DNA of 64,000 bases from an uncultured Gammaproteobacteria bacterium (GTDB lineage: Bacteria > Patescibacteriota > Patescibacteriia > S139-126). The notes beneath the pieces were generated by a model. It made no database searches. It had not been told where the DNA came from and worked only from the letters and a program-made list of their open reading frames with translations. Location: NCBI GenBank assembly GCA_964620905.1, contig CAZUKA010000002.1:25496-89495 (forward strand). The letters run 5' to 3'. Below are positions 10,825 to 55,926 of this stretch, piece after piece; within the stretch, counting starts at the first letter, position 1, and every line of letters begins with the position of its first letter. A program made the translations under genes and the position numbers.

Positions 10825-10853
10825 TTGACAAATTGGCAAAAAAGGTGTATAAT
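10825..10853 (+). promoter_or_regulatory. consensus sigma70-type promoter (TTGACA-17 bp-TATAAT) driving the DGR target gene
   Basis: Perfect -35 TTGACA, 17-nt spacer and perfect -10 TATAAT. An 8-bp inverted repeat (ttggtaaa/tttaccaa) follows in the leader. Confidence 0.7.
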
Positions 10854-10924: not shown

Positions 10925-11638
10925 ATGAAAAAGCATGAGACATCGGTCCTGACCGCTGGTCAGATGAAAGAGCTTTCCAGTGCTATATTGGAAGCAATCC
11001 CTGCCAATTTACCAACCAGTACTGCCCAGTACTGGATAGGCAACAAAAAAAAGTTGCAAAAAATTTTACGTGAAGCACTTGGCGTTCAACCTTTTTTTGA
11101 TTATCTTGCCGACTGGCAAGATTTCTACCGGGATGTGTTTAACCTGGAGTTTGATTTTTCTGAAATCTCTATTCCTGATAAAAAATCAGGTTTTGACAGA
11201 TTAATAATTGTTGCTCCCGGCATGACACCCCAAGTCTTATTCAATAAATGTTCCGAGTTGTTTTCAACTTGGAAATACACTGATAAATCTTTGGATGAGG
11301 TAATAACCTCTGACCGCACTTCTGCAAACGGCGCTTATGCCGTCTGGTTCCGCGATAGAGTGGAAGCAGATGAGGAGATGAAAAACATCTACGCCAATCA
11401 GCTTAAAAAGCAAAAAGTAATCAGCATTACCTTAGAAGAACGTCTCTTAATGGAACTTAAGTTCTATCAAGAGACTGGGAAACATTTAGATGTTTCCAAT
11501 ATTACTTTATGTGCAGGTTCTCGCCATGACGGCGGCAACGTCCCGGGCGTCGACTGGCTCGATAGTGAGCTCGAGGTCAGCTGGTATGACCCTGACAATC
11601 AGCACGACGATCTGCGTTGTCGTGTAGCAGTGGTCTAA
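10925..11638 (+). CDS. DGR variable (target) protein, 237 aa, VR in the C-terminal 38 codons
   Basis: The last ~118 nt of the CDS are a GC-rich repeat of the TR. Variable positions fall in codons corresponding to TR AAC/AAT/AAG/GAC. C-terminus WYDPDNQHDDLRCRVAVV. Confidence 0.85.
   Translation: MKKHETSVLTAGQMKELSSAILEAIPANLPTSTAQYWIGNKKKLQKILREALGVQPFFDYLADWQDFYRDVFNLEFDFSEISIPDKKSGFDRLIIVAPGMTPQVLFNKCSELFSTWKYTDKSLDEVITSDRTSANGAYAVWFRDRVEADEEMKNIYANQLKKQKVISITLEERLLMELKFYQETGKHLDVSNITLCAGSRHDGGNVPGVDWLDSELEVSWYDPDNQHDDLRCRVAVV
11515..11632 (+). repeat. DGR variable repeat (VR)
   Basis: Aligned by eye to 11900-12017. It differs only where the TR has A. Confidence 0.85.
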
Positions 11639-11658
11639 CTCTTTTCTTTTCTCTCTTT

Positions 11659-11690
11659 AACCCTTTCATAAAAATGAAAGGGTTTTAATT
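11659..11690 (+). terminator. hairpin/terminator ~25 nt downstream of VR (aaccctttcat-aaaaa-tgaaagggtt + T-rich)
   Basis: 10-bp perfect stem. The position matches the stem-loop commonly found downstream of DGR VRs. Confidence 0.6.
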
Positions 11691-11899
11691 TATGTAAAAA
11701 TATTTTATATTGTTTAAGGCTGTAAAATCGATTTCGCAGATGCGGGATAACGATTTGCCGTTTTTTTTAGACACTGCTTGTCTGTTTTTGATAAAGATGT
11801 ATAAGATACTACTTTATAAAAAAAGTCCGAACTCGCGTCGGTTAACTCAGATAACTTTGTTAAAGGTTGTCGGTGTAAGGGATGAAAACAGGCAAAATA

Positions 11900-12017
11900 A
11901 GGTTCTCGCAATGACGACGACAACGTCCCGAACGTCAACTGGAACGATAGTAAGCTCAAGGTCAACTGGTATAACCCTGACAATCAGAACGACAATCTGC
12001 GTTGTCGTGTAGAAGTG
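11900..12017 (+). repeat. DGR template repeat (TR), non-coding, Asn-codon (AAC) rich
   Basis: Translated in the VR frame it reads RNDDDNVPNVNWNDSKLKVNWYNPDNQNDNLRCRV. 7 AAC codons, 6 of them diversified in the VR. Confidence 0.85.
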
Positions 12018-12023
12018 TCTTTT

Positions 12024-12050
12024 AAACCCGCTCTTTATTGGAGCGGGTTT
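12024..12050 (+). other. GC-rich hairpin immediately 3' of TR (aaacccgctc-tttattg-gagcgggttt)
   Basis: 10-bp stem. It overlaps the stop of the minus-strand Avd-like ORF. Confidence 0.5.
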
Positions 12051-12390
12051 ATTTATAAAGAGATTTTATCCAACCATTAGTCATTTTTGACATTTCTTGC
12101 AAAATGGAGATTAATTCTAGATATTGTTTTTGGGAAATAATTGTTAGTTCTTGGCAAATTCTTAGTAATCGTTTTGTAATTTCAATATTAATTCGTGATT
12201 TTTCTAAAATATTAATCTTGGTTGATTTGTTTGACAGAGCGGCTTCAATCAGTAGAGTAATAATGTTTAAACATATGTTTTCAATTTTAAGAAAAATTCC
12301 CAACTTATCTTTTTTTGCTAGTCTGGATGAAATTTGGTATATTTTTTTATATAATTCAAAACTTCTATGTACCAACGGCACATTTTGCAA
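12049..12390 (-). CDS. Avd-like accessory variability determinant (four-helix-bundle protein, 23S-rRNA-IVS protein family)
   Basis: 113 aa amphipathic helical protein. Pattern (HRSFELYKKIYQIS...IENICLNIITLLIEAALSNKS...LEKSRINIEITKRLLRICQEL...MTNGWIKSLYK) matches the PF05635/TIGR02436 family that includes DGR Avd. It is encoded antiparallel to TR and RT. The start is TTG or GTG; there is no ATG. Confidence 0.65.
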   Translation of the reverse strand: MQNVPLVHRSFELYKKIYQISSRLAKKDKLGIFLKIENICLNIITLLIEAALSNKSTKINILEKSRINIEITKRLLRICQELTIISQKQYLELISILQEMSKMTNGWIKSLYK

Positions 12391-13432
12391 AAACTCGTCG
12401 GGGGGGGGGATTAAAGGACATAATTTATTTGAGCAAATTATTAGTTTAGATAATTTGTTTTGCGCCTGGCGCGAGTTTCAGTGCGGAAAAATGAAAAAAC
12501 CCGATGTGCGTGAGTTTGCTTTTGCTTTGGAAGATAATATTTTTTCCTTGCACGACGAATTAAAAAATAAAACTTACCGACACTCTCATTATACTTCATT
12601 TTATGTATCTGACCCAAAGCTAAGGCATATTCATAAGGCCTGTGTCAGGGACAGGGTATTGCACCATGCGATATTTAGAGTTTTATATCCTGTGTTTGAT
12701 AAGTCATTTATTTTTGATTCTTATTCCTGTCGGTTAAAAAAAGGCACGCACAGGGCAGTTGATAGGTTAGAGAGATTTTGCCTTATGGTCAGTCAGAATA
12801 ATAATTACAACTTTTACTATCTAAAATGTGATATTAAGAAATTTTTTGTTTCGGTTGATCAGGAGATTTTAGTTTGTCTTATCAAGAAAAAAATTGTTGA
12901 TCCAGACGCACTCTGGTTGATACAAGAAATTACTAATAGTTTTCAGACTAGCAATAACAAAGGATTACCGTTGGGTAATGTCACTAGCCAGCTTTTAGCT
13001 AACATTTATTTAAACAAACTTGATCAGTTTATAAAACATCAGCTAAAGGCTAAATATTATCTCAGATATTGCGATGATTTTTTGCTATTATCACCTGATA
13101 AAAATTTATTGGTTGATTATGTCGGGTTGATTGATGATTTTTTACAGAACCATTTAAAACTCAATCTCCATCCTGACAAAATAATCATAAAAAAATACAA
13201 CCAGGGAATTGACTGGTTGGGCTATGTGGTTTTGCCGCATTACCGGCTACTGCGCACCAAAACCAGGCACAGGATTATTGAGCGGATTAAGAATAAACAA
13301 AGAGATTTTAAGTCAGGAGTTGTCAGTCAAGAGCATTTTTGCCAGTCAGTCCAGTCGTATCTGGGAGTGCTTGAGCATTGTTCCGGGTATAAAATAGAGC
13401 GAGAGATGCTGCGCCTTGTGAGTAATGATTAG
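12367..13432 (+). CDS. DGR-type reverse transcriptase (frame interrupted by the G10 tract at 12400-12409 in this assembly)
   Basis: RT motifs: CRLKKGTHRAV (motif 2), YYLKCDIKKFF (motif 3/A), GLPLGNVTSQLLANIY (motif 4 with DGR-specific SQ), RYCDDFLLL (motif 5/C, YxDD), LGYVV (motif 6). The co-linear frame is open from 12104 but its first ATG is at 12491, inside the conserved N-terminal region. The ATG at 12367 is in frame only if the G-run is 9 rather than 10. Confidence 0.85.
12400..12409. repeat. G10 homopolymer at the 5' end of the RT gene / 5' UTR of the Avd-like gene
   Basis: Ten consecutive G in a ~35 % GC genome. It sits 31 nt after the ATG at 12367 and 10 nt upstream of the minus-strand Avd-like start. 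Confidence 0.8.
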
Positions 13433-13503: not shown

Positions 13504-13806
13504 ATGAACAATTTAGAAAAATTGATTTTTAAGATCAATCAACAGCAGACGGTTTTTAAAATAGAGCATGAACAAATAACCAATAGTCTTATATTGACTA
13601 TTAGTGTTAATAAAACCGACAAAGAAGATTTAAAAAAATTACTCAAAAAAATAAGAAAGAATTACCAGTGTGAAAATCTCACCGGCACAAATGAGCCAAC
13701 CTCACCTGTTTTTGGTCAAAATACCAATCTAGCTATTTACAGTTTAATTTTTCATTCGCAAAAAGAAATAGAAAAAGTCATTAAATTTATCGGGACTCAT
13801 TGTTGA
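13504..13806 (+). CDS. hypothetical protein (100 aa)
   Basis: ORF with a GGAGAG RBS and an upstream TTGACA box, followed by the hairpin gggactcattgttgagtccc. Confidence 0.45.
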   Translation: MNNLEKLIFKINQQQTVFKIEHEQITNSLILTISVNKTDKEDLKKLLKKIRKNYQCENLTGTNEPTSPVFGQNTNLAIYSLIFHSQKEIEKVIKFIGTHC

Positions 13807-28403: not shown

Positions 28404-31064
28404 ATGTCGTTTTCGGTAGACAAAAATAGTCAAGCCAAACAAAAAAATTTTTTTGTTTTTTTGTCCGTTTTTGGGTTAACATTTTTTTTATTATTATTAG
28501 GTTATAGTTTACGAGCCCAAAATATCGTTTACCCGATAGAAATTTTAAATTTGTTTGATGGTCAAACAATTTCTTCAACAACTTATAAATTTAAATTTGA
28601 AGCAAAAAATGAGATTGAATTTTTGGAATTGCGTTTTATCCCTTTAGGTAGTGCTGATGCAAAAGGACGTCAGGCTTATGCTAAAAGAGAGAGCGGGAGT
28701 AGCAATATTTGGATTTTTGATTTAGAGACTACTCAATTGGGCAGTGGTAATTTTCGTTTGGAAACCGTGGCAATTTATTCTGATCAAACAACAGTTGCTG
28801 GACAAACTAAAAATTTTACCATTGCTCAAAATCTGACCTTTGATACAAAAATAAAAATCGCTAGCCCTGTATCAGGACAAATAATAAATGAACCAATTTA
28901 TTTTACAGCTGAAACAAATATTCCTGTTGCGGAAATAGTTTTTTCAATTTTTGACAGCAATAAAATCTTGCAAGATCAACTAATAAGTAGCACTTCCACC
29001 CCGACTTTATATCATCAAGTCAAATTTTTACCATCAACAATATCCAGAGATGGGAAGTATCTACTACAAGCAGAGTATATTAGTCCAACTAGCACTTTCT
29101 CTTCCCTGGCAGTGGATTTTTATATAGCCAATTCTGTAGCTGATATTAATACTTCCACAACAAGCATTTTTCTAGTTTCTCCTGTTGAGCAGGCAACTAT
29201 TGTGGGTAATGTTTTATTGCAAGCAAAGGTTTCCACTTCGGTTGATGAAGTTTATTTTCGTTTGGATAGTGATTTTATTCCTGCCAGAAGGTTTGATCAG
29301 AATATTTGGCAAGAATATATTTTGACCAATAATTATACTACCGGTACCAAAGATTTATTGGCTGTAGCTCGTCTGAGTGAGAAGGAGTATTACAGTAACC
29401 GTGTGCAAGTAAAAATAGGTAATGATGATTCTATCAGACCAAATCAAGATTTACCAAAACAGCCCAGCTATATAATTACCACGCCGTTGGTTGATAATAG
29501 TAATACCAATTCCCTGAATTCCACGACAACAGTAAATATTTTAGATGAAAGTACCACCACCAGCCCAATAGAACCAACAAATTTATCAGAATCAGAGCAG
29601 AGATTAATTGAATGTCAAAATCAGGACATAAAAAATATCAGTTGTGGGGTTTATTTAAAAAATAAAGATAGTTTTACAGCTGAGTGTATCAATAAGGTTT
29701 TAAATGTGGATGAATGTTTGACCGGATTTTCTAAATGTCAAGTTGGCGGTATTGTTGATATTGATTTATGTCAAAAATATCTGACCGAACCGCGGGCAGC
29801 GCGCTGGTGTGATTTGGTTGAATTTAAAAATCAACCATTATGTCAAAATTATTTATTAGAGAAAAGAACGTCTGGTTTAATCAGACCAGAGGTTGATTTA
29901 ATTTGTTTACAACAATCAATTTTCAATTCCCAAGCTTGTCAGCGTTTTAAGGAATATATTAGCTTGTCTACTGAATGTCAACAAGCCGGTTTTAAACGAT
30001 TAGCTGATTGCCGTCAGTTTTTGCAAGCCAATATCTTACCCGCGGCTTGTAGACTTATTGGTCAAAGTGATTTAGCTCTGTGTCAGCAAAATATTTTACA
30101 AAAATATCAGACCGGCGGTTATTGCCAAGATGAAAACTGCCGTGAGGATTTAAAAAAATTTATTGGTGAATTGTCGGCTCGTGAAATTTCTTTGCATATT
30201 CTAAAAGAAGTACAGCAGAAAAAGACCAATGGTTTTCTAACGAATGATGATCTGGGTTGGTCGCCCGTTCAAGCTTTACAATCTCGTTTGGCAGTTTCTT
30301 TGCAGCCAAATTTTTCTTATCAGTTGCTACCGGCTGATGATCAAATCAAAATATCTCAAGGTTTTATTTCTCAACCGCTGCCAGCAATGGTAGTCAAAGA
30401 CTCTGATCAAGATGGCTTGCCTGATGATATGGAGCGGAGAATCGGTTCGGATCTTACCAGCTCAGATACTGACGATGATGGTTATAATGATTTAACTGAA
30501 GTTTTAAATGGTTATGATCCTTTACTTGCAGGAGCTAAGTGGTCAAGATTACTGTCGGCAGTAGAAAAAGCTATCATCAATAGGCAAACATTCCAACATC
30601 CTGTGGTTGGTGGTCAGGAGACAGACGAATTGCAAATTGAATCAATAACCAATTCACCAGCCGAAGTAAATGCCAACTTATTACTACGTGGTACAGGACC
30701 GGCTTACGGGGTTTTGAGTCTTTATTTTTATTCTGATTTACCATTGTTGGCTACCGTTCAGGTTGATGAATACGGTCGTTGGCAATATGATTTGTCAGAT
30801 AGTTTGACTGACGGATCACATCAAGTATATTTGGTAATCAATGATGAAACTGGTAAGGTGCAAAAAAAATCAACGCCACAAGTATTTTTTATCAATCAAG
30901 CCAAAGCCGCAGCCGTAGGTGAATTTATTGATTTGACTGTTTCCGAAGAAACTACTGCACTTGAGAAGTATTATATTTGGGGTGCGACAGTTCCGATACT
31001 TTTAGCTTTGGGTCTATTTTTATTTTTGCGTCGCCGCCATAAAGATGAAATTCAATTATCATGA
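28404..31064 (+). CDS. large cell-surface protein (886 aa) with signal peptide, Cys-rich central region, thrombospondin-3-like Ca-binding repeat, C-terminal TM anchor
   Basis: N-terminal hydrophobic signal. DSDQDGLPDDMERRIGSDLTSSDTDDDGYNDLTEVLNGYDPL motif. C-terminal hydrophobic helix followed by RRRHK. Confidence 0.55.
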   Translation: MSFSVDKNSQAKQKNFFVFLSVFGLTFFLLLLGYSLRAQNIVYPIEILNLFDGQTISSTTYKFKFEAKNEIEFLELRFIPLGSADAKGRQAYAKRESGSSNIWIFDLETTQLGSGNFRLETVAIYSDQTTVAGQTKNFTIAQNLTFDTKIKIASPVSGQIINEPIYFTAETNIPVAEIVFSIFDSNKILQDQLISSTSTPTLYHQVKFLPSTISRDGKYLLQAEYISPTSTFSSLAVDFYIANSVADINTSTTSIFLVSPVEQATIVGNVLLQAKVSTSVDEVYFRLDSDFIPARRFDQNIWQEYILTNNYTTGTKDLLAVARLSEKEYYSNRVQVKIGNDDSIRPNQDLPKQPSYIITTPLVDNSNTNSLNSTTTVNILDESTTTSPIEPTNLSESEQRLIECQNQDIKNISCGVYLKNKDSFTAECINKVLNVDECLTGFSKCQVGGIVDIDLCQKYLTEPRAARWCDLVEFKNQPLCQNYLLEKRTSGLIRPEVDLICLQQSIFNSQACQRFKEYISLSTECQQAGFKRLADCRQFLQANILPAACRLIGQSDLALCQQNILQKYQTGGYCQDENCREDLKKFIGELSAREISLHILKEVQQKKTNGFLTNDDLGWSPVQALQSRLAVSLQPNFSYQLLPADDQIKISQGFISQPLPAMVVKDSDQDGLPDDMERRIGSDLTSSDTDDDGYNDLTEVLNGYDPLLAGAKWSRLLSAVEKAIINRQTFQHPVVGGQETDELQIESITNSPAEVNANLLLRGTGPAYGVLSLYFYSDLPLLATVQVDEYGRWQYDLSDSLTDGSHQVYLVINDETGKVQKKSTPQVFFINQAKAAAVGEFIDLTVSEETTALEKYYIWGATVPILLALGLFLFLRRRHKDEIQLS

Positions 31065-37674: not shown

Positions 37675-40626
37675 ATGAAAAAAACAATTTTTACACTTTT
37701 GATTTTTGCTTTGGGATTTGGATTAATTCCAAATTATTTTATTTTTAACAAAGTCAGCGTTAATGTAGCTAATGCAGAAGCAAGCTGTCCTACAGTTACT
37801 ATTGACAATTCAACCTATCGCCTAGAACCATGTAACATGAATTTTGAAATGGTTGATGGTGAAGGTAATAAAGATTTCCAAGTAAAAATAGTTCAAGGCG
37901 GTCAATCAACTTTGTATGGTTTTCAGAGATATGGGTATGGCGTAGGATTTCCAACCTATGCGATTTTAGGCGATAGTAGTGGAGGAGTAAACGGAACTGA
38001 TAAAATTTTGTCATTTAGTTTACAAGATAGTGTATTGAACAGTGATGGTAATCAAAATAAAGTATATTCAGGTTATCTACCCATACAAATTTTTCATGGA
38101 TCATGGAATGGGGTATATGAGGAGTTAAAATTAAATTTAACTGTTACAGTCAAACCAGAATCATTTGTTGAACCTTTTGTTTACAATGTGGGTCCGGAGT
38201 GGAAATTTATTTCACCAGTCACCAATTTAATGATAGGCCAACCGATTTTAAACTTTTTTCCAAATTTGGAAAATGTTTATTATTATGATAACGGTTATAA
38301 ACAAGCAAATAATTTTGAAATGGGCAAGGGTTATTGGTTGAAAAATAAAACCAGTCAGACAATTTATGCTACTGGTACACCAATTACTTCCGTAACTTAC
38401 AATCTACCTGCTCAAGGTCAACATCTGATTGGCGCGCCGTTTCTAATGAATTTATCAGATGTACCTTGTGTGATTGATGTGTTGCATTACAACAGTCAAA
38501 CCAATACTTATGATTCAAATTTTGAAATAGCCAAAGGTTCAGCTGCGTTTGTCAAAACAAATGGAAGCTGTAGTTTTACCAAATTAATTGATCGGGTAAA
38601 GGTGGTTATATCAGCACCAACCGTCACTGATATTACTTCAAGTTCTGCTAAAGTTTCCTATAGTATCAGTGGTACCAATAGTACCAATCCGACAATGTGT
38701 TTTGGTACCATTGACTCATCAGTCAATAATTGTTCTGGTATGTCGGTAGTGGCCAAACCAGATGGAACTTTCGAAACTAGTTATAATTTTAGTGGTTTAC
38801 AACCCAATACCAAATATTTTTATCAATTGATTTTGGATAAAAGTACCGGTTTTGAAATCAAAGATAAGGTTTATTCATTTGTTACATCCAATAATTCATC
38901 TTACAATTTGTTTGTAACTTCACCAGTTAAGGGTATAAAGTGGTATTTGGGTGAAAAATATTCAATAAATTGGAAGGCAACTGATGTTCCAGCTGATTAC
39001 ATGGTTGGTATAATGCTCTCAAACAACGGATTGGATAAGGAAATAATAAATTGTTTTGCAAAAATTCCTGTTTCACAAAATTCTTTTGAATGGGTAGTGC
39101 CAAAAGATCAATTGATAGGTGAAAAATATACTATCAAGCTTGGTATTTATAAAGTTGATTCACCTCAAAATGCCTGTGTTGGTCAAGTCCCAATGGTAGA
39201 AAGTGATTATTTTAGTATTTTAAAAGAAAAACCAGTTGTGGGTGATAATAATATTACCTCCCCCTACCTTTTTGCTTTAAATGGCCAAGAAGACAAAGAA
39301 GGAAAAGTAAATTCTGATATTTATGCTAGTTTCAATCGGATGATATTAGGTGGTAGGGTCGGTAAGGGCGTGGAAAAAGTTAAGATCAATTTGATATTAC
39401 CAACAATGGGACCCACCGAAGTCAGTGATGATTGTGAATTGGATTTAATAAAGAATAGTAATACTTGCCAAAGTTTGGAAGCAGTCGGCTTGGTGAATAA
39501 TCAAGCCAACAATCAGGCCGTGTTGAAGATTGATATGAGTAAAAATAATTACGAAAGCCTAAGGTTTGATGTAACTTATAGTTCAGCTGCCAATCCTACT
39601 GACTATACGGTAGATATTGGTGATTCAATTAGTAATGATGGTTGGGGTGGAGATGCTGGTCATCAAACTAACGATGCCGAAGTCCAAATTTACAATACCC
39701 ATCTATCAATTTTTGGTAATGACAATACTGTTGGTGAAAGAAGATTATACAATCTGGGTTATTATGTATCAGCTGGTGATACTGTGAGTATTACAGTTAG
39801 AAATAATTCCGTGCAATGGTCAAAAGTGAAATCGGCTATTGCTGATGTAGTTGTTCCAGATTCTGTATCAGTTGAAAAACCAATCGCCGAGATAAAAGAA
39901 AAAGCCACTTTGCTTTATGAAGGAGAAATTTCTAGCATTTTATCCGAACTCAACACTGTCAGAGACACAGTAAGAGAGCAAGAGATTGAAATCAAATATT
40001 TGAGAGCTTTGATTCAAAACCTTGCTCAGGTAAATGAAAGTATGAAAGAGATGATAAATCATTTTATTACCTACGGTGTTGATACCAATAGTATGAAATT
40101 GGGTGAAGGGGAAAGAGCAGCAGTGGTATATTCCTTTAAGGAAGCCTTTGGCAAATTGCCAGAAAGTGAAGTTGATTTTGAAGATGTGATCAAAATTGCC
40201 AATGGTCGGTGGCCGGAAAAGAAAAGTGATCAAGCTTTAGCTTCTGCCCGAGCAGAATTTGCCAAAATTTATCAGCGTGCCGACAATGCCAACAACCCCA
40301 ATGACCAAGCAGCTGTTACTATCATGGCTTATGGTTTAAGGCAAAAAGCTGAAAATAGAAATTTGTTGAGTGAACAGAACGGTTTGAAAATCTTTGCTGA
40401 ACTTTATGACAAAAATCCACAAACAACCACTGACTGGAATATATTGCAAGCCATCACTTATTCTGGTGCAACTAGAGAAGTGATAGATACTGATAAGGAT
40501 GGTTTGTCAGATGAAATGGAGAAGCGACTAGGTACTGATCCAAAAAATTCTGACACTGACGGCGATAGTTATTTGGATGGGCAAGAAGTAGTCCATGGTT
40601 ATAACCCCCTGCAAAAAGCTCAATAA
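37675..40626 (+). CDS. large secreted surface protein (983 aa) with FN3-like segment and C-terminal thrombospondin-3-like Ca-binding repeat
   Basis: Signal peptide. DTDKDGLSDEMEKRLGTDPKNSDTDGDSYLDGQEVVHGYNPL at the C-terminus. FN3-like ITSSSAKVSYSISG region. Confidence 0.55.
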   Translation: MKKTIFTLLIFALGFGLIPNYFIFNKVSVNVANAEASCPTVTIDNSTYRLEPCNMNFEMVDGEGNKDFQVKIVQGGQSTLYGFQRYGYGVGFPTYAILGDSSGGVNGTDKILSFSLQDSVLNSDGNQNKVYSGYLPIQIFHGSWNGVYEELKLNLTVTVKPESFVEPFVYNVGPEWKFISPVTNLMIGQPILNFFPNLENVYYYDNGYKQANNFEMGKGYWLKNKTSQTIYATGTPITSVTYNLPAQGQHLIGAPFLMNLSDVPCVIDVLHYNSQTNTYDSNFEIAKGSAAFVKTNGSCSFTKLIDRVKVVISAPTVTDITSSSAKVSYSISGTNSTNPTMCFGTIDSSVNNCSGMSVVAKPDGTFETSYNFSGLQPNTKYFYQLILDKSTGFEIKDKVYSFVTSNNSSYNLFVTSPVKGIKWYLGEKYSINWKATDVPADYMVGIMLSNNGLDKEIINCFAKIPVSQNSFEWVVPKDQLIGEKYTIKLGIYKVDSPQNACVGQVPMVESDYFSILKEKPVVGDNNITSPYLFALNGQEDKEGKVNSDIYASFNRMILGGRVGKGVEKVKINLILPTMGPTEVSDDCELDLIKNSNTCQSLEAVGLVNNQANNQAVLKIDMSKNNYESLRFDVTYSSAANPTDYTVDIGDSISNDGWGGDAGHQTNDAEVQIYNTHLSIFGNDNTVGERRLYNLGYYVSAGDTVSITVRNNSVQWSKVKSAIADVVVPDSVSVEKPIAEIKEKATLLYEGEISSILSELNTVRDTVREQEIEIKYLRALIQNLAQVNESMKEMINHFITYGVDTNSMKLGEGERAAVVYSFKEAFGKLPESEVDFEDVIKIANGRWPEKKSDQALASARAEFAKIYQRADNANNPNDQAAVTIMAYGLRQKAENRNLLSEQNGLKIFAELYDKNPQTTTDWNILQAITYSGATREVIDTDKDGLSDEMEKRLGTDPKNSDTDGDSYLDGQEVVHGYNPLQKAQ

Positions 40627-48080: not shown

Positions 48081-48390
48081 ATTATTCTATTTATATTAAA
48101 TATACAAAATATCTTTGGAATATTAAGATTGTTTGAAAAAAATTTATAGGTAAGACATAAATTTAAAATATAAACTACTCCATATTCGGAGCGTTTTTTT
48201 CTTATCTAAACAAACTGTCAAATTTTGTAAAATAATGAGGTGCTTAAGTGAATTACATTAAAACTAAGGTGATTTTTGGCTTTGTTAATGAAGTTGAATT
48301 ATAACCAATTAGTATTGACTTTTTCCTAAAAATTTGCTATTATTTAATGTTTAGTAATAATTAACAATCAAAAAATTACTGGAGAAAAAA

Positions 48391-48606
48391 ATGAAAAAGG
48401 ATGTTGGTCCCACTATCTTATTAATTGTTGGATTTTGTATATGTATTATGTCAGTTTTGAGCTGGCAGATGACTTGGTACATTAATCCATGGATTGGAAC
48501 AATTGGTTTATTATTTGGTTTAGTTCTAATTTTTTTATCTTTAATTTTTTCATTTATTATAAAAATAATAAATGGTATATTGAAAACAATAATCAATTTT
48601 TTTTAA
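48391..48606 (+). CDS. small 2-TM membrane protein (71 aa)
   Basis: GGAG RBS at -8, two hydrophobic helices, terminator hairpin downstream. Confidence 0.45.
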   Translation: MKKDVGPTILLIVGFCICIMSVLSWQMTWYINPWIGTIGLLFGLVLIFLSLIFSFIIKIINGILKTIINFF

Positions 48607-48745
48607 CCTAAAAAATATAAATTTTTTATAACTGCTCTCTTATAGAGCGGTTTTTTATTAACTAAGGTGTCTGGATTTTTGAGGAGAAGGTAGTATTTCA
48701 GGTGAAATTTTGATAAAATAAAAGTAATATAATTTACTAAAATAT

Positions 48746-48928
48746 ATGTATAAAATAAACAAACATATGTATAAGGAAATTGATAAGTACAATTATAAAG
48801 GTTGGTTAAACTCTGATAGCTTTATAAAAAGAGTAATCGCCGTCAATGGTTATTTTTTAACAGGGCAATTACTCCTTTTATTTATTGCTAGTATTGTCAC
48901 TTTCATTTTAGTTTCTAATTTTATTTAG
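48746..48928 (+). CDS. small membrane protein (60 aa)
   Basis: Short ORF with a C-terminal TM, located between repeat modules. Confidence 0.3.
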   Translation: MYKINKHMYKEIDKYNYKGWLNSDSFIKRVIAVNGYFLTGQLLLLFIASIVTFILVSNFI

Positions 48929-48963
48929 TTACTAAATTTATTTTATTTTAAGTTGTTAGTTTT

Positions 48964-49100
48964 AAAACCACTCCTCTCGGAGCGGTTTTTTCTATGTCAA
49001 AATATGTAAAATGGGGTCCCACCAGGTGCGATTTTGGAACCCCTTGATTGAGGAGTTGAAGTTGTGGATGGAGGGGTTGGAGATGGTGGTTTAGATTAGA
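48964..49100 (+). repeat. terminator + conserved block module, copy (tRNA-His-proximal repeat family)
   Basis: aaaaccactcctctcggagcggttttttctatgtcaaaatatgtaaaatggggtcccaccaggtgcgattttggaaccccttgattgaggagttgaagttgtgg... Confidence 0.8.
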
Positions 49101-49157
49101 TAGCAAATAAAAAAGGTCTACTAAAATTAGCAGACCTAAATTTTTTAAAAATTTTAA

Positions 49158-49400
49158 CTAATCTGTATCAGCTTTTATGCATCCACCAATAACTATACCG
49201 ATTCCAGCAATTGCCGCTACAATAAAAAGAGGTGATTGATGCCCCTCTAATGGCAAAAATACTTGTACAATTGATGCAAATCCACAAACACTTATTATTG
49301 CCCCAGTAAACCTAGGAAGAATTTTTGCTAATATGATAAGTACCAGACCAATTATTTGTAGACCCGCACAGATGATTGATAAAGTTTCCAAGTTAAACAT
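49158..49400 (-). CDS. small 3-TM membrane protein (80 aa)
   Basis: ORF on the minus strand inside the repeat-delimited array. Confidence 0.4.
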   Translation of the reverse strand: MFNLETLSIICAGLQIIGLVLIILAKILPRFTGAIISVCGFASIVQVFLPLEGHQSPLFIVAAIAGIGIVIGGCIKADTD

Positions 49401-49477
49401 TTTAACCCCACTATTTATTTGTATTGTTAATGTGAATTAATGGAGTATAATAGCATAAGTATATTGAATTGTCAATA

Positions 49478-49630
49478 TAAAACCGCTCCTTTCGGAGCGG
49501 TTTTTTCTATGTAAAAATATGTAAAATGGGGTGGCACCAGGTGCGATTTTGGAATCCCTTGATTGAGGAGTTGAAGTTGTGGGTAAGTGGTATTAGAGAT
49601 TGCTGTTTAGGTAGGATTTTGGTAGAATTA
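49478..49630 (+). repeat. terminator + conserved block + extended -10 (TGGTAGAAT) module, copy
   Basis: Near-identical to the 48964-49100 and 56382-56532 copies. ATG of the downstream gene is 6 nt after TAGAAT. Confidence 0.8.
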
Positions 49631-49634
49631 AAGT

Positions 49635-50003
49635 ATGAATGAATATATAATGCCATCAGAATTTTCTAATTTTTTTAAGCCAACTAAACGTAAAGTACTA
49701 GTATCTTTACTAATACCGTTTATAATATTAGGACTGCCTTTATTATTTTTAGTAATCAGAGCCTTTTTGTGTTTTAACTGGAATGGTTATAATTGTTCAG
49801 GTGCCACAGATGCAATATTTGAGATTCTTTCATATCCTTTCTTATTATTATTTATTGTACCATTAGAAAAACTAGAATTATTTTTTTCACCAAAAACATT
49901 TAGTGGCGAAGTTATATTATTTATAAGTTTAATTATTTTTTATTTATTTTTGAGTTATCTTTTTGTTTCATTTTATTATCATAAAAGGAATAAAAATATT
50001 TAA
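49635..50003 (+). CDS. membrane protein (122 aa)
   Basis: ORF immediately downstream of a module promoter; 3 TM helices. Confidence 0.45.
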   Translation: MNEYIMPSEFSNFFKPTKRKVLVSLLIPFIILGLPLLFLVIRAFLCFNWNGYNCSGATDAIFEILSYPFLLLFIVPLEKLELFFSPKTFSGEVILFISLIIFYLFLSYLFVSFYYHKRNKNI

Positions 50004-50025
50004 ATTTTTATATAATAAATAAAAA

Positions 50026-50170
50026 TTGCCCCCTCTCGGAGCGGTTTTTTCTTATCTAAATCTACTGTCAAATTATGTAAAATGGGGTGCCTTCGTAGAC
50101 GCTATTAGAACTAAGATTATTTATAGTTTTGAGGAAGAGATGGCTCAATAGGTAAGTTTTTGGTAGAATT
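50026..50170 (+). repeat. repeat module, variant copy
   Basis: ccccctctcggagcggttttttcttatctaaatctactgtcaaattatgtaaaatggggtgcc ... tttttggtagaatt. Confidence 0.75.
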
Positions 50171-50175
50171 AGTAT

Positions 50176-50802
50176 ATGATTAGATTTTTCAGTAAAATAT
50201 TTTTACCATTTAAAGTGGCTGGCGGATATGCAATAGTATTAACATTATTTGTTGTTGGAGTTTCAGCATTTGTTTATTCTGGTGGATTTCTAGATTTGCC
50301 CTTAATTTTTATTTTTTTACCACCATTTCCGGCAATAATTACACTTCCAATTACAATTGTAATATGTTGGTTTATTGCATCATTATTAATTAAATTACAA
50401 AGAAAAATATTACCAAATAAAGAACGTTTATTTACCTATTCAATTATCATAATTCTAGTTTTAATTATATTTATATTTTCTGTTCCTGTTTATGCAACAC
50501 GTATAATTAAAATAATTCCAACCTCTCAGATTTGTTGGATTGCGGATAACTGGGATAATTGGGCGCCTAGTAATAAATACGAAGGTACTAAATGTTATAC
50601 TGCGTTAGCAATTAAAAAAAACGATTTAGATCTATGTGGTGATCTTAATTATGAATTCTTGAGAGAGGGATGTTATGTACAGATGGCAATTTTTAATAAT
50701 GATATCACTATTTGTGAAAAGTATATTCATAAAGTTCCTAATTATATATATCCCGATACTAATATTAATGATTGTAAAAAAAGAGTTCAACGAGGAAAAT
50801 AA
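50176..50802 (+). CDS. membrane protein with Cys-rich C-terminal domain (208 aa)
   Basis: Multi-TM N-terminal half; C-terminus with 8 Cys (CWIADNW...CYTALA...CGDLNYEFLREGCYVQ...CEKY...CKK). Confidence 0.45.
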   Translation: MIRFFSKIFLPFKVAGGYAIVLTLFVVGVSAFVYSGGFLDLPLIFIFLPPFPAIITLPITIVICWFIASLLIKLQRKILPNKERLFTYSIIIILVLIIFIFSVPVYATRIIKIIPTSQICWIADNWDNWAPSNKYEGTKCYTALAIKKNDLDLCGDLNYEFLREGCYVQMAIFNNDITICEKYIHKVPNYIYPDTNINDCKKRVQRGK

Positions 50803-50819
50803 TTTTAATTTAATAATTA

Positions 50820-50900
50820 CAAACCGCCCCCTCTCGGAGCGGTTTTTTCTTATCTAAATCTACTGTCAAATTTTGTAAAATGGGGTCGCTTGGGAACTTA
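50820..50900 (+). repeat. repeat module, partial copy (terminator + proximal block)
   Basis: aaaccgccccctctcggagcggttttttcttatctaaatctactgtcaaattttgtaaaatggggtcgc. Confidence 0.75.
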
Positions 50901-51048
50901 AGTTATAACTTTAAAATGATTAGTGATATATCACACCCCTAATGAATTTAAAATGGTTAAAATAAATTTTTGTATAAATACTATGCCAGGCAAGAATATA
51001 AATTACCGATCTAAGATTGTTTGATGCCCCTATATTTTTTATTTGCAA

Positions 51049-54000
51049 TTATTTTTTAAACCAAGGGGAATGGGTATAACCTTCTTTACCCGACCAGAGG
51101 TAGAGAGTGGGAATATCGGAATAAAGTTCTTGATGAATATCGCTTGAATAAGTCCAAAAAATAATATTTTTAAATTCTTTTTTAAGAGCTTCGGATTCAA
51201 TTTTTCTCATCACATAATATCTCTTGGCTTCATTTTTATAATCCTTAAATCCTCTATGTTTGGCTGATTTTTCTAGCTCGGCACTGTTTTTTAAATCTCG
51301 CCACTCTCTTTCTGTTAATAATTTAAGATTATTTTTTATTATAATGTCAGATAATTTTTGTCTTTTCCATAGTTCACTTAAATATTTACTGGTATATCCA
51401 GCTTTTTTAATAAGTTTTTTTATTTCTTTTAGATATTGTTCATAAGTATTTTTATTATACTTATTCAACCTTGCATGTTCGTTAGCTAAAATAAAAATAA
51501 AATTAAGACCCGGCTTATAAATGTTTTTAATTTGATTATTTAACTGTTGAAATTTTTTTAATGCCGCTAAGTCTTTTTCGTCTATTTTTAATTTATCAGA
51601 TGCTCCCCAGAAACCAACTAAATCAATCGGTTTATTTTTTAAAACAAACTGATTGATTGCAAAGGCGATCTCGTCCTCCTTATAGGGGACATCTCTTGAA
51701 ATATTTCTTTGATTGAATAATTTTAAAATTTCATCAGCTATAGATGGTTTAATAAATTGTGGCAAACTCGCCCTCATTAACCAAGGATAGATTTTATACC
51801 ACGCTTGTCTAGCATTTTCTATACCCGCACTATTGATTTTTAATTTTTTATCCCAAAATTTTATTAATTCATTAAACATAACATCATGATTTAGCATAGT
51901 TGGAAATTCATTTGTAAAATATTTCAAAGCCTTAATTTTGTTTTTCTTTATAAAATTTATTGTTTCTTTTAAAGCCGAAACAAAAGATATGATTGCGGGT
52001 TGAAATTTTGGATCAAGATTATCGCAGATTGTAATACCTGTAAATAAATAATCTCTAAAATAATCTTCAAAAGAATAAACAATATGTCCCCCGCGACCAA
52101 CTAAGTCTAATGCATAATCTACAGTCATAATACCAATATCCACCTTTCTTTCTTTTAATGCCTTAACTAAGGCATTAGATTTAATAGGAATAAATTTTTT
52201 ATTGGGTAATATTTTTTTAGCAAGTGTATTGGTTGTTGAAAATTCTTGATAGGTACCAATTTTGTAATTATAAAAATCATCTAATTTTTTAATTTTTATA
52301 TTTGGGTCTAATGTAACTGCGACCACGGGAACACGACCGATTAATTGTCCAACAATTTTTCCTTTGGTTTTAAAATTTGAAGCAAAAGAAAAAACTGGAT
52401 CAGCGATACCTATTTGAGCAGAGCCTGACATTAAGGAATTATAAGTTAAATCATCGCCCCCCGAAGAAATAAAATCTATATCTAGTTTGTGTTTTTTATA
52501 ATAACCTAATTTGGCTGCTAAGTAGGCCGGAAAATAAAGGGGCATTCTTGAAAATTCAGCCACCAACATTCTGTATTCTCCCGGCTTATCATCGATAGTA
52601 CTTAATGTTTCTTTAGTGATTATTCGATGATAATTTTTATGTAGTTTATTAAATTTAAGATTTTTGTACTTGTTGAAATAAACTAATTCTTCTTCGGTTA
52701 AAAAACCATATCTCTGTTTAGTTGGATAATCTAGTTTACCTTTATTTTCTGATAATACTGCCTTGGCCACATCGCCATCTTGTGTTCTAAAATTAAAACC
52801 AACATTCATACCTGCACCATTGGAAAATGGAACTTTGTAACGCCAGGCAATATAATCGGGCAAGAATTCTTCGGCTACCTTTCTTAAAATATATTTAGTA
52901 GTAACTTGATGATTTTCTCTTTTAATTTTTAGACTACCATCAATTTGTAGGGCAAATTCTGCGACTTTGGTATCAAAAAATGGAGCTCGAGTTTCCAATG
53001 TATGTTTCATAGACATTCTATCCACGCGCATATTATGGCTTCGTTCCAAATCATTAGTGATTAGATAGCAACCCTTATTTACATGTTCATCACTTAATCT
53101 TGAAAACTCATTATAGCCCCCAAATAGTTCATCTGCTGCTTCACCAACTAATGCTATACGATAACCAGCTCGAACCACTTCTTTTGAAAGGATGTCTAGC
53201 GCAAAAGATTGTCTTATAACTTGAGCCTCATACATTTCTAGATGATAGATTAAGTTTTCAAATTCTTTTGCATAATCAACATTCGGATAAACAATATGAT
53301 ATTTATAATTATTGTCTTTGCATAACTTTAAAGAAGCTTCATAATCAGAAGAGCCTGGGAAGCCAAGTATAAAGGCAGTTACGTTTTTATGAAATCTTGT
53401 AGCTATCTCCATTATAAGACTACTGTCAACACCACCGCTTAATAAAACTGCGATTGGCAAATCAGTATCAACTCTTTTTTTTACTGCTTCGACCATTAAT
53501 TCAGTTAATTTTGTTTTTGCAAAATCTAAATCTTTAATTTTGTTGTTGTAATTTATTTTGTGATAAGCTTTTATTCTCCCATTATACATATAACATCCTT
53601 TGGGGAAAATTTTTACTTCTTTTATAAAATCGAATTGTACTAGCTGTTTTATTTCCGAACCAAAATAAAAGTTTTTATTTTTATCTCTAGCATAAAATAA
53701 AGGTTTTACACCAAAACGATCTCTAGCTACAAAAAAATTATTTTTCTTAGTATCATAAATTACAAAGGCATACATTTCCGAATCAATTTTTTCGATCATT
53801 TTTTCTCCGTACTCCTCATACAAATGTGCTAATACTTCCGTGTCACAATCCGTTTTGAATTTATGCTTCTTTTTTTCTAATTGAGATCGTAATTCTTTAT
53901 AATTAAATATTTCACCGTTTTGGGCAGCAAAAATAGTACCATCTTCATTAGATAGCGGTTGATGACCAGTATCACGACCAACAATTGGTAAGCGATTGGC

Positions 54001-54132: not shown

Positions 54133-54222
54133 AAATTATGATTTTAATAAATAATTTATTTTGTAAAAAATAAAATTTTAAAAGAGTTATATAAATATTT
54201 TTTAATAGTCTAATTATATCAC

Positions 54223-54375
54223 AAAACCGCCCCATCTCGGAGCGGTTTTTTTAATGTTATAAATCGGCCTGAATGGCTGTGCCATCTGAAGCTTTAGCGT
54301 AGGATGGGGTGGCACCAGGTGCTATTTTTGAACCCCTTGATTGAGGAGTTAAAGTTGTGGGTGGAGTCAATGGTA
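54223..54375 (+). repeat. repeat module copy (upstream of the AsnB-fusion start)
   Basis: aaaaccgccccatctcggagcggttttttt ... ggatggggtggcaccaggtgctatttttgaaccccttgattgaggagttaaagttgtgggtggag. Confidence 0.75.
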
Positions 54376-54518
54376 ACGTGTTAATATTGACTTTTTCGTA
54401 AAAATATGCTACAATTCAATATTCTAAATCGTACATACACAATAAAAAATAAGCCATCGAGAGGATGGCGATGTTCAAAAAACATTGACACGAGAAGTGT
54501 CAGAAAGGATTCAACATC

Positions 54519-55917: not shown

Positions 55918-55926
55918 TCAATTACA

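What the first reader, a model, noticed from the sequence alone, without database searches (positions are those of the whole stretch)
11515..12017. VR/TR pair: 15 of 15 mismatches fall on template adenines; TR is packed with AAC codons
Hand alignment of VR (11515-11632) and TR (11900-12017) gives 118 aligned positions with 15 differences. In every case the TR base is A and the VR base is G, C or T. No other base differs. Read in the VR frame, the TR encodes RNDDDNVPNVNWNDSKLKVNWYNPDNQNDNLRCRV, with 7 AAC codons, 6 of them diversified in the VR. The changes are cat->aat, ggc->gac (x2), ggc->aac, gac->aac, ctc->aac, gag->aag (x2), agc->aac, gac->aac, cac->aac, gat->aat and gca->gaa. This is the adenine-specific mutagenesis signature unique to DGRs. 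The 3' ends (ctgcgttgtcgtgtag) are identical, consistent with an IMH-like element.
Basis: seen in the sequence. Interest (0 to 1): 0.85.

Follow-up and report, generated by a model that had tools for sequence, protein, structure and literature searches.

The report
Diversity-generating retroelement in a CPR bacterium
The repeat pair is the template and variable region of a real diversity-generating retroelement of the type already known from tiny candidate-phyla (CPR) bacteria, and comparing relatives shows that its template sits in a separate small RNA gene whose folded control region lies upstream of the template, not downstream as in the phage model system.

Summary
VR 11515-11632 and TR 11900-12017 align without gaps over 118 nt. 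All 15 differences fall on TR adenines (exact P 2.6e-9), and all are non-synonymous.

The other parts of a diversity-generating retroelement (DGR) are present:
- a 237-aa target protein whose predicted C-terminal fold is a C-type lectin carrying the VR;
- a reverse transcriptase (RT) whose best solved relative is the Bordetella phage bRT;
- an Avd gene on the opposite strand.

This TR-(avd)-RT layout is the published "B3" architecture, typical of CPR bacteria. A sister strain has its own VR (28/28 differences on A). Its non-A TR changes are copied into its VR, so the element is, or recently was, active.

Two things go beyond the finding. First, the TR is part of a roughly 340-nt RNA gene, with a structured leader strongly supported by covariation (11712-11906), then the TR, then a terminator hairpin. 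The leader has the same local order of elements as the phage Sp RNA (7-bp duplex with the TR 3' end, 2 nt, 12-bp duplex next to the TR 5' end, stem-loop, A-run), but it lies upstream of the TR. It matches no Rfam family. Second, a G10 run sits at the avd/RT junction. This repeat is conserved in relatives and varies in length between otherwise identical loci.

Verdict: new member of a known kind.

The parts
10825..10853 (+). Promoter-like site upstream of the target gene (TTGACA, 17 nt spacer, TATAAT)
   Evidence: 12 of 12 consensus matches. This is a consensus match only, not evidence of function.
10925..11638 (+). Target (variable-protein) gene, 237 aa: an N-terminal helical region followed by a C-type-lectin-like domain that ends in the VR
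11515..11632 (+). VR, the variable repeat: last 39 codons of the target gene
   Evidence: In the homologue alignment, variable columns cluster in this segment between invariant scaffold residues.
11641..11664 (+). Pyrimidine-rich block just after the VR, conserved across the 9 related loci aligned and absent after the TR. Candidate acceptor-site (IMH-like) mark.
   Evidence: invariant columns C9 T10 T11 T13 T17 C23 T24 T25 C31 T32 in 9 loci whose RTs are only about 60% identical. The function is inferred.
11659..11684 (+). Hairpin with a T-tail after the target gene. Terminator-like; possibly the counterpart of the hairpin downstream of IMH in the phage DGR.
   Evidence: 11-bp stem. By eye, 7 of the 9 aligned relatives carry a hairpin at the same place with unrelated sequence; L005 and L042 show none.
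11712..11906 (+). Structured 5' leader of the TR RNA. Helices: P0 11718-11720/11757-11759; P1 11726-11736/11743-11755; strand a 11769-11775; invariant GC 11776-11777; P2 11778-11789/11884-11895; P3 11793-11802/11806-11815; A-run 11818-11824; P4 hairpin within 11826-11841; P5 11850-11858/11863-11871.
   Evidence: Structure-blind MAFFT alignment A5: 97.9% of cells paired, 24 of 40 pairs with compensatory changes, 0 of 500 shuffles reach this, slid controls 40-56% paired. CM R1 hits the window at 171.5 bits and has significant hits (E <= 0.01) in 66 of the 100 sequences searched; 66 of the 68 hits lie on the RT strand, the other two being weak second hits. 62 distinct sequences: 96.2% paired, 38 of 40 pairs compensatory (model-fitted alignment). 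The single-sequence MFE fold recovers all helices. No Rfam family matches. P0 and P4 rest on the MFE fold and visual inspection only.
11900..12017 (+). TR, the template repeat (invariant donor)
   Evidence: It starts 4 nt after the 3' strand of P2.
12014..12020 (+). Strand a' (AGTGTCT) at the TR 3' boundary, which pairs with leader strand a (AGACACT, 11769-11775)
   Evidence: Perfect 7 bp in the window, where both strands differ from the family consensus GGAAACT/AGTTTCC. Permutation test over 49 loci: own-locus score 6.28 against 5.69 +/- 0.07, 0 of 5000. Also recovered by the MFE fold.
12024..12050 (.). Hairpin between the convergent TR RNA (+) and avd (-). Looks like a bidirectional intrinsic terminator and may also be the 'Avd-binding stem-loop' proposed for DGRs in general.
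   Evidence: (terminator family D3). A strong hairpin follows the TR in 14 of 16 loci of this architecture, with unrelated sequences and A/T tracts on both sides. Termination itself is inferred.
12049..12390 (-). [quoted passage not shown]
   Evidence: Pfam PF22296 bAvd 48.7 bits (gathering score 40). NCBIfam DivGenRetAVD E 5e-13 but below its cut-off. Same position and orientation in 26 of the 45 related genome loci. The start codon is uncertain.
12400..12409 (.). G10 homopolymer at the divergent avd/RT junction
   Evidence: 65 of 111 related loci have G7-G12 at this place, and a sister group has (GT)n instead. Length differs between loci with 100% identical flanks.
12413..13432 (+). DGR reverse transcriptase (conserved part). 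The true start codon is unresolved: the ORF is open back to 12104, but that extension is not conserved.
   Evidence: Pfam RVT_1 E 2e-20. PDB 8ub7_A (bRT) E 4.5e-38 over residues 3-294. Relatives carry stops just upstream of the G run.

Best explanation
This is the core of a chromosomal diversity-generating retroelement of the CPR (Patescibacteria) 'B3' type.

Shown here:
- The TR/VR pair differs only at TR adenines.
- The VR ends a gene for a C-type-lectin-fold protein.
- A bRT-like reverse transcriptase and an Avd homologue sit next to the TR.
- A sister strain carries a differently diversified VR, and its TR's non-A changes are mirrored in its VR.
- The TR is preceded by a roughly 190-nt RNA leader whose helices covary across more than 60 loci, and it is followed by a hairpin.

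Inferred mechanism:
1. A short non-coding RNA (about 11718-12055) is transcribed on its own.
2. RT-Avd binds the folded leader.
3. The 7-bp helix between leader strand a (11769-11775) and the TR 3' boundary (12014-12020) places the end of the template at the active site. cDNA synthesis is primed in cis from the leader, at or next to the invariant U-G-C at 11775-11777.
4. The RT copies the TR towards its 5' end, misincorporating opposite adenines.
5. It stops at the 12-bp helix P2, which abuts the TR 5' end.
6. The cDNA replaces the VR, guided by the A-poor 3' block and by VR-specific flanking sequence.

The result is variation at up to 37 adenine positions, recoding the ligand-binding face of the target protein.

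The local order of leader elements matches the Sp RNA of the Bordetella phage DGR: stem-loop, primer strand, 2 nt, stop duplex, stem-loop, A-run. The difference is that the leader is joined to the 5' side of the TR, not the 3' side.
For: A-only mismatches, P 2.6e-9, all non-synonymous.

Proteins:
- RT: best solved relative is bRT at E 4.5e-38, with the [I/L]GxxxSQ and YxDD motifs aligned.
- Avd: Pfam bAvd above its gathering score.

Activity:
- Sister-strain contig L046 has 28 of 28 VR/TR mismatches on A.
- All 5 differences between the two strains' TRs at positions where both carry a non-A base are mirrored in the cognate VR.
- 33 other related loci also have A-biased TR/VR pairs.

Architecture: TR-(avd)-RT recurs in 26 of the 45 related genome loci. 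It is the published B3 architecture, which makes up 90% of the CPR DGR set (PMC5758913).

Leader RNA:
- Covariation.
- CM hits (E <= 0.01) in 66 of 100 sequences searched; all strong hits on the RT strand.
- Helix a/a' covariation.
- The MFE fold of the window sequence alone reproduces the whole fold.
- The layout matches the bRT-Avd:RNA cryo-EM description: 7 canonical bp of template:primer duplex, 2 nt, an 11-bp stop duplex, a short stem-loop, then unpaired adenosines (bioRxiv 10.1101/2023.10.23.563531).

Boundaries across 38 loci: in the TR body, A sites differ from the VR at 54% and non-A sites at 0.9%. Inside a', non-A sites differ at 33%, so a' lies outside the copied zone.
Against: - No RNA or cDNA data exist for this element. 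Transcript ends, the priming nucleotide and the stop site are all inferred by analogy.
- The RT has no canonical in-frame start codon near its conserved N-terminus. The G10 run could leave it out of phase, so present-day activity in this particular genome is not shown.
- Helix a/a' is imperfect in some relatives. A subclade has an A.C mismatch in the middle, and L010, L047 and L063 fit poorly.
- Adenines 3-5 nt upstream of a' are never changed in relatives (0 of 24). The adenine at -1 is changed in 30 of 32, and always to a pyrimidine. The exact cDNA start or transfer boundary is therefore unclear. The -1 difference may be a fixed donor/acceptor mark, or the result of protein-level selection (Glu to Ala/Val).
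- Avd scores below the NCBIfam equivalog cut-off (49 against 80 bits).
Confidence: 0.9

Rival explanations
1. A DGR that is currently switched off or decaying in this genome. The TR/VR signature would be a record of past activity, and the RT is not translated because it lacks a usable start or is out of phase at the G10 run.
For: No in-frame ATG/GTG/TTG lies between the G run and the conserved RT N-terminus. The only in-frame ATGs (12104, 12263, 12275) lie inside antisense avd, in an extension that relatives interrupt with stops. In relatives, a start-like NTG codon (TTG, CTG or GTG) fused to the G run is in frame with the RT in only about a third of loci.
Against: The RT, avd and target ORFs are all intact, with catalytic motifs present. 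The leader, a/a' and terminator are intact and compensated in this very sequence. The sister strain shows TR-to-VR transfer since the two strains diverged. A repeat-gated OFF state would be reversible and is not decay.
Confidence: 0.2
2. The upstream leader is only a promoter/5'-UTR or an unrelated small RNA. Under this reading the functional priming and RT-binding RNA lies downstream of the TR, as in the Bordetella phage: the hairpin 12024-12050 is the Avd-binding stem-loop and is followed by sequence antisense to avd.
For: Handa et al. report putative Avd-binding stem-loops just downstream of the TR, and up/downstream duplexes, in 207 of 278 Avd-containing DGRs including CPR ones. A hairpin does follow the TR in 14 of 16 loci of this architecture.
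Against: - The segment immediately 5' of the TR, which forms the stop duplex in the phage, here pairs with an upstream partner. That pairing has compensatory changes at 8 of 12 pairs in the blind alignment.
- The TR 3' boundary pairs with the leader, with covariation.
- The hairpins have A- and T-tracts typical of bidirectional terminators.
- Handa et al. examined only 40 nt upstream of the TR, so they could not have seen the leader.
Confidence: 0.1
3. An ordinary diverged duplication whose differences fall on adenines by chance or through compositional bias.
For: None beyond the bare existence of a repeat.
Against: Hypergeometric P 2.6e-9. The same A-only pattern occurs in 34 related loci. 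An RT and avd are adjacent.
Confidence: 0.005

Closest known systems
CPR/DPANN DGRs with the B3 architecture TR-(avd)-RT (Wu et al. 2018, NAR, PMC5758913; surveyed by Paul et al. 2017, which was not readable here)
   Same: Gene order and orientation: target with a 3' VR, then the TR, then avd on the reverse strand, then the RT. Host group is Patescibacteria. The target protein has no recognisable Pfam domain. The element lies on the chromosome among housekeeping genes.
   Different: Nothing essential; this locus is a further member. What is added here for the group is the covarying upstream leader, helix a/a', the terminator and the repeat tract at the RT start. I did not find these described in the papers I could search.
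Bordetella phage BPP-1 DGR (mtd-VR, avd, TR, Sp, brt) and its DGR RNA as seen by cryo-EM (Handa et al., bioRxiv 10.1101/2023.10.23.563531)
   Same: A-specific mutagenesis, a bRT-like RT, Avd and a C-type-lectin-fold target. The RNA logic also matches: a 7-bp duplex with the TR 3' end, 2 nt, an 11-12-bp duplex with the segment just 5' of the TR, a stem-loop, then unpaired adenosines.
   Different: - In the phage the structured RNA (Sp, 140 nt) follows the TR and runs into brt. Here it precedes the TR, and the RNA appears to end at a terminator 7-33 nt after the TR.
- avd is inverted and is not part of the RNA.
- There is no sequence or CM similarity to the phage Sp: Rfam, which should include RT-10 (the family built on the phage Sp), gives no hit here.
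- The first template base is probably A here, not G.
Retron ncRNA (msr-msd)
   Same: A stand-alone ncRNA in which the structured part lies 5' of the template. A terminal helix is formed by the two ends of the template-containing loop, and an invariant G follows directly after its 5' strand, where retrons have their branching G. This comparison is geometric and rests on my own knowledge of retrons.
   Different: The RT belongs to the DGR clade, not the retron clade (NCBIfam retron_St85_RT 56.6 bits against a cut-off of 235). The template has a cognate A-diversified VR. Avd is present. No msDNA-type stem-loop template is seen.
Rfam RT-1 to RT-19 motifs (Weinberg et al. 2017, PMC5737381)
   Same: Structured RNAs next to bacterial RT genes. 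RT-10 is the phage Sp, and the authors guessed that other RT motifs serve other DGRs.
   Different: None of the 4227 Rfam 15 models reaches even E <= 1 on the leader, either in the window or in 10 related loci.

Membership tests
Diversity-generating retroelement (DGR) | TR/VR near-repeat whose differences are (almost) all at TR adenines | tested here: met
   15 of 15 on A, P 2.6e-9.
Diversity-generating retroelement (DGR) | Reverse transcriptase of the DGR clade ([I/L/V]GxxxSQ in motif 4, YxDD) close to the TR | tested here: met
   Best PDB relative is bRT 8ub7_A at E 4.5e-38, against 9e-17 for group II intron RTs. LGNVTSQ aligns with IGSLTSQ, and YCDD with YMDD. No phylogeny was built.
Diversity-generating retroelement (DGR) | VR at the 3' end of a protein-coding gene, in a fold that tolerates variation (C-type lectin or Ig) | tested here: met
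Diversity-generating retroelement (DGR) | Accessory protein (Avd or HRDC) | tested here: met
   PF22296 bAvd 48.7 bits, above the gathering score of 40. NCBIfam DivGenRetAVD 49.2 bits, below its cut-off of 80. No PDB sequence hit.
Diversity-generating retroelement (DGR) | One-way TR-to-VR transfer (VR varies, TR stays invariant) | tested here: met
   Window against sister strain L046: the VRs differ at many A positions. All 5 TR differences at positions where both strains carry a non-A base are mirrored in each strain's own VR. This is comparative evidence, not experimental.
Diversity-generating retroelement (DGR) | IMH / IMH* elements marking acceptor and donor at the 3' end | tested here: inconclusive
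   There is an A-poor, G+C-rich shared block, followed by divergent flanks. A pyrimidine-rich block conserved in the 9 aligned loci, plus a hairpin, follows the VR only. a' differs between TR and VR at 33% of non-A sites across loci.
B3 architecture of CPR DGRs (Wu et al. 2018) | Core order TR, avd on the reverse strand, RT | tested here: met
   TR 11900-12017 (+), avd 12049-12390 (-), RT 12413-13432 (+). Definition taken from PMC5758913.
Phage-type DGR RNA (Sp downstream of TR; Rfam RT-10) | [quoted passage not shown] | tested here: not met
   No Rfam hit at E <= 1. The TR-RT interval is occupied by a terminator-like hairpin and avd on the other strand. The covarying structure lies upstream. 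It works like Sp in layout but is not a member of that RNA family.
Retron | Retron-clade RT with an msr-msd ncRNA and no cognate variable repeat | tested here: not met
   NCBIfam retron_St85_RT 56.6 bits, far below its cut-off of 235. A cognate VR exists.
Group II intron | RT/maturase inside a ribozyme of six domains | tested here: not met
   TIGR04416 133.5 bits against a cut-off of 300. No group II intron Rfam hit anywhere in the window.

The most novel reading that the evidence does not exclude
CPR B3-type DGRs would use a circularly permuted DGR RNA. The Sp-like domain that binds RT-Avd, supplies the priming nucleotide and forms the stop duplex would be encoded upstream of the TR, in a self-contained, terminator-ended ncRNA gene with retron-like 5'-structure/3'-template order. 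In addition, RT (and perhaps avd) expression would be gated by a hypermutable repeat (poly-G or (GT)n) at the divergent avd/RT junction, making hypermutation itself phase-variable. Neither feature appears in Rfam 15 or in the DGR papers I could read. I could not read Paul et al. 2017 or the final published version of Handa et al., so prior description is not excluded.
Probability: 0.45. Interest if true: 0.7.

Novelty: new member of a known kind. Interest (0 to 1): 0.45.

Why it matters
The DGR call itself is routine, because DGRs are known to be common in CPR bacteria. The value lies in what this locus and its relatives show about the mechanism.

- **A natural permutation of the phage RNA.** A family of more than 60 natural sequences places the primer strand, stop duplex, stem-loop and A-run on the other side of the template from the only DGR studied structurally. 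That amounts to a natural circular-permutation experiment on the cis-priming model.
- **A defined RNA for reconstitution.** The analysis defines a compact RNA of about 340 nt that could be used to reconstitute a CPR DGR.
- **A better search model.** The covariance model finds these elements independently of the RT.
- **A testable control point.** The conserved, length-polymorphic repeat at the RT start suggests how cells with tiny genomes might switch a mutator on and off, which is an open question for DGRs.

Tried and rejected
- **Other VR copies.** An A-tolerant scan of both strands of the window found none, so the TR has a single target in the 64 kb.
- **Population variants of this exact TR.** A full-length pattern with N at every A found no match in metagenome contigs. 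The sister strain was reached through the protein.
- **Rfam.** Nothing on the leader or TR at gathering thresholds or at E <= 1, in the window or in 10 relatives. The only hits were chance matches to terminator-containing leader and sRNA models on the hairpin.
- **ORFs across the leader and TR.** ORFs 11710-12012 (+) and 11714-11983 (-) were rejected as genes. The conservation pattern consists of paired columns, with indels that are not multiples of 3.
- **ORF 13504-13806 downstream of the RT.** No family hit and no tblastn match in any of the 45 related genome loci searched. It is not part of the element.
- **Long RT ORF from 12104.** Rejected as the real N-terminus, because relatives carry in-frame stops just upstream of the G run.
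- **Structure-blind column test of a/a'.** MAFFT put the TR 3' ends in two registers one column apart, so I used a permutation test on best local pairing.
- **Position -1 (12013) as the first templated base.** This is compatible with the data but not proven.
Full report
**Observation.** At offset 385, window 11515-11632 (VR) and 11900-12017 (TR) align without gaps over 118 nt with 15 mismatches. In every one the TR base is A (10 A>G, 4 A>C, 1 A>T).
- With 37 A in the TR, the exact probability that all 15 fall on A is 2.6e-9.
- All 15 mismatches are at codon position 1 or 2 of ORF 10925-11638 and all change the amino acid.
- The TR carries 7 AAC and 3 AAT codons in that frame, and only 3 of its 37 A are at codon position 3.
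- Homology ends abruptly on both sides, and no other copy exists in the 64 kb on either strand.

**The surrounding genes.**
- *Target.* ORF 10925-11638 encodes a 237-aa protein with no Pfam or NCBIfam match. It has 299 homologues, and every one that carries an organism name is from Patescibacteria/CPR. In their alignment the scaffold residues of the last 40 positions are invariant (C196, G198, S199, R200, V206, P207, W211, P223, L230, R231, R233). The positions templated by TR adenines vary freely.
- *RT.* Downstream of the TR, ORF 12104-13432 contains an RVT_1 domain. Its conserved part (12413-13429) matches the Bordetella phage bRT chain 8ub7_A at E 4.5e-38 over almost its whole length, against 9e-17 for group II intron RTs. 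LGNVTSQ aligns with the DGR-specific IGSLTSQ, and YCDD with YMDD.
[quoted passage not shown] It also matches NCBIfam DivGenRetAVD, but below that model's cut-off.
- *Context.* The neighbours are housekeeping genes: EF-P, S18, SSB, S6, a CDP-alcohol phosphatidyltransferase, YchF and Ddl (apart from the transferase, which has a Pfam hit, I named these by reading the translations). The element is therefore chromosomal.

**Activity.** A 1165-nt JGI contig (L046) is a sister strain, with only scattered substitutions in the flanks.
- Its own VR/TR pair has 28 of 28 mismatches on TR adenines.
- Its VR differs from the window's VR at many A-templated positions.
- The five positions where the two strains' TRs differ and both carry a non-A base are each mirrored in that strain's own VR.

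Concerted change at non-A sites together with divergence at A sites is what repeated TR-to-VR transfer predicts. A script also found A-biased TR/VR pairs in 33 further related loci.

**Architecture.** Of 45 related RT loci from genomes, 26 have an avd homologue on the minus strand directly upstream of the RT, with the TR, and the target where the stretch reaches it, upstream on the plus strand. Wu et al. (PMC5758913) define this as architecture B3, TR-(avd)-RT. [quoted passage not shown] The inverted avd is therefore a known group trait and not an oddity of this window.

**The TR is part of a structured RNA gene.** The 267 nt between the VR and the TR are conserved in blocks across loci whose RTs are only about 60% identical.
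- *Blind alignment.* On a MAFFT alignment of 11 leaders, RNAalifold predicts four helices. With that structure, 97.9% of cells pair and 24 of 40 pairs show compensatory changes. No shuffle out of 500 reaches the observed values, and sliding the partners by 1-3 columns drops pairing to 40-56%.
- *Covariance model.* A model built from this alignment has significant hits (E <= 0.01) in 66 of 100 sequences searched. Of the 68 hits, 66 lie on the RT strand upstream of the RT; the exceptions are a weak minus-strand second hit in L102 and a weak second hit in L065, which lies about 1.6 kb upstream of the RT. There is exactly one hit in the window (11712-11906, 171.5 bits). On the 62 distinct matches, 96.2% of cells pair and 38 of 40 pairs are compensatory. 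That alignment is model-fitted, so it leans towards the structure.
- *Helices in the window.* P1 11726-11736/11743-11755. The long-range P2 11778-11789/11884-11895, whose 3' strand ends 4 nt before the TR. P3 11793-11802/11806-11815, followed by a run of seven A. P5 11850-11858/11863-11871. P0 and P4 are seen only in the MFE fold and by eye.
- *Rfam.* No family matches, even at E <= 1, in the window or in ten relatives.

**Helix a/a'.** The 7 nt directly 5' of an invariant GC and P2 (window AGACACT, 11769-11775) are complementary to 7 nt at the TR 3' boundary (AGTGTCT, 12014-12020).
- The family consensus is GGAAACT/AGTTTCC.
- Variants covary: TGAAACT/AGTTTCA, AGAAACT/AGTTTCT, TAGAACT/AGTTTTA, GGAGATT/AATCTCC, TAGCACT/AGTGCTG and ACAAACT/AGTTTGT.
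- MAFFT misregistered this short region, so I tested it by permutation. The mean best pairing of each leader with its own TR flank is 6.28. After shuffling flanks among 49 loci it is 5.69 +/- 0.07, and 0 of 5000 permutations reach the observed value.
- Some loci fit poorly: L010, L047, L063, and a subclade with a central A.C mismatch.
- The MFE fold of window 11712-12060 alone recovers a/a' together with every other helix.

**The hairpin after the TR.** A strong hairpin follows the TR in 14 of 16 B3 loci. The sequences are unrelated, with an A-tract before and a T-tract after, as expected for a bidirectional terminator between the convergent TR RNA and avd. In the window it is 12024-12050. Termination itself is inferred.

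**Comparison with the phage RNA.** In the cryo-EM structure of bRT-Avd with its RNA (bioRxiv 10.1101/2023.10.23.563531), the Sp RNA downstream of the TR contains, in order:
1. an Avd-binding stem-loop;
2. a primer strand that makes 7 canonical base pairs with the TR 3' end;
3. 2 nt;
4. a strand that makes 11 bp with the segment just 5' of the TR (the 'cPRT Stop');
5. a short stem-loop;
6. unpaired adenosines;
7. a single-stranded ring and a long RT-binding stem-loop.

The window's leader reads P1 stem-loop, strand a (7 bp with the TR 3' end), GC, P2 (12 bp with the segment just 5' of the TR), P3 stem-loop, A-run, then P4, P5 and conserved single strands. The local order is the same. The connection to the TR is different: the leader is joined to the 5' side, so the RNA is in effect a circular permutation of the phage RNA. 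It shares the 5'-structure/3'-template order of retron ncRNAs. That study examined other DGRs using only 40 nt upstream and 100 nt downstream of the TR, which cannot reveal this leader. Assigning functions to the helices (primer, stop, Avd- or RT-binding) is inference by analogy, and nothing here tests it.

**The 3' boundary.** Across 38 loci that have both repeats:
- TR-body adenines differ from the VR at 54% (419 of 776) and non-A sites at 0.9%.
- Inside a', non-A sites differ at 33%, so a' lies outside the copied zone, like IMH* against IMH.
By my reading of the alignments, the VR base there is always C or T, sometimes with a 1-nt insertion.
- Adenines 3-5 nt upstream of a' never differ (0 of 24).

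The last mismatch is thus not ordinary A-mutagenesis. It may reflect initiation at that base plus protein-level selection (GAA Glu to GCA/GTA Ala/Val at a conserved C-terminal position). It may equally be a fixed donor/acceptor mark. I cannot decide between these.

After the VR only, there is a pyrimidine-rich block (11641-11664) conserved across the 9 aligned relatives, followed by a hairpin (11659-11684). Seven of those nine relatives carry a hairpin at that position. Together these are a candidate acceptor signal.

**Repeat at the RT start.** G10 at 12400-12409 lies 10 nt from the first possible avd start, on the other strand, and 3 nt before the first conserved RT codon.
- Of 111 related loci with this region in view, 65 have G7-G12 at the same place, and a sister group has (GT)n there.
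- Length differs between loci whose 150-nt flanks are 100% identical on both sides: G11 against G12, and (GT)5G against (GT)8G.
- Many loci, including the window, have no canonical in-frame start near the RT N-terminus. A start-like NTG codon (TTG, CTG or GTG) fused to the G run is common, but it is in frame in only about a third of those loci.

This looks like a contingency locus, or a site of polymerase slippage, gating RT expression. I did not test it further.

**Verdict.** As a kind it is known, so it is a new member of the CPR B3 group. The parts I could not find described are the upstream Sp-like leader, helix a/a', the terminator-bounded RNA gene and the repeat tract. I searched Rfam 15, PMC5758913, PMC5737381 and the Handa preprint. 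I could not read Paul et al. 2017 or the journal version of the Handa study, so my claim of novelty for these parts is moderate.

Noticed in passing
window 12400-12409 (and the same site in L001-L126): A G10 run sits at the divergent avd/RT junction. Of 111 relatives, 65 have G7-G12 there and a sister group has (GT)n. Length differs between loci with identical flanks (G11/G12, and (GT)5G/(GT)8G). The RT lacks a canonical start codon nearby. This may be a phase-variation or slippage switch for the mutator.
   Followed up: partly
window 11712-11906, with 12014-12020: A structured RNA leader of about 190 nt lies upstream of the TR. Its helices covary, a 7-bp helix links it to the TR 3' boundary, and it matches no Rfam family. 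It mirrors the element order of the phage Sp RNA but sits on the other side of the template.
   Followed up: yes
window 12013 and 12009-12012; 38 related loci: The adenine just 5' of the a' strand differs between TR and VR in 30 of 32 loci, always to a pyrimidine and sometimes with a 1-nt insertion. Adenines 3-5 nt upstream of a' never differ (0 of 24). The 3' end of the transfer zone therefore does not behave like the TR body.
   Followed up: partly
window 11641-11664: A pyrimidine-rich block lies immediately after the VR (in some relatives it appears as two CTTGTACC-like half-sites). It is conserved across the 9 aligned loci and absent after the TR. It is a candidate acceptor-site signal.
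   Followed up: partly
window 12104-12412 (+): The RT reading frame stays open for about 100 codons antisense to avd. Relatives interrupt this extension with stops, so it looks like an accidental antisense open frame and not an N-terminal domain.
   Followed up: partly
window 48150-57470: Repeated intergenic modules of about 70-105 nt (families D1-D7), each with a terminator hairpin CCGC(C/T)CC...GGAGCGG followed by promoter-like and leader-like sequence. They precede several small ORFs. Those I read are a mix of predicted transmembrane, cysteine-rich and apparently soluble proteins.
   Followed up: no
window 30462-30520, 40549-40607, 56884-56942: Three genes share an acidic repeat of the form SD(T/S)D(D/G)D(G/S)(Y/F)...(G/H)(Y)(D/N)P, similar to a calcium-binding motif.
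   Followed up: no
window 13504-13806 (+): A 100-aa ORF directly after the RT has no family hit and no tblastn match in any of the 45 related genome loci searched. It is probably not part of the DGR.
   Followed up: partly
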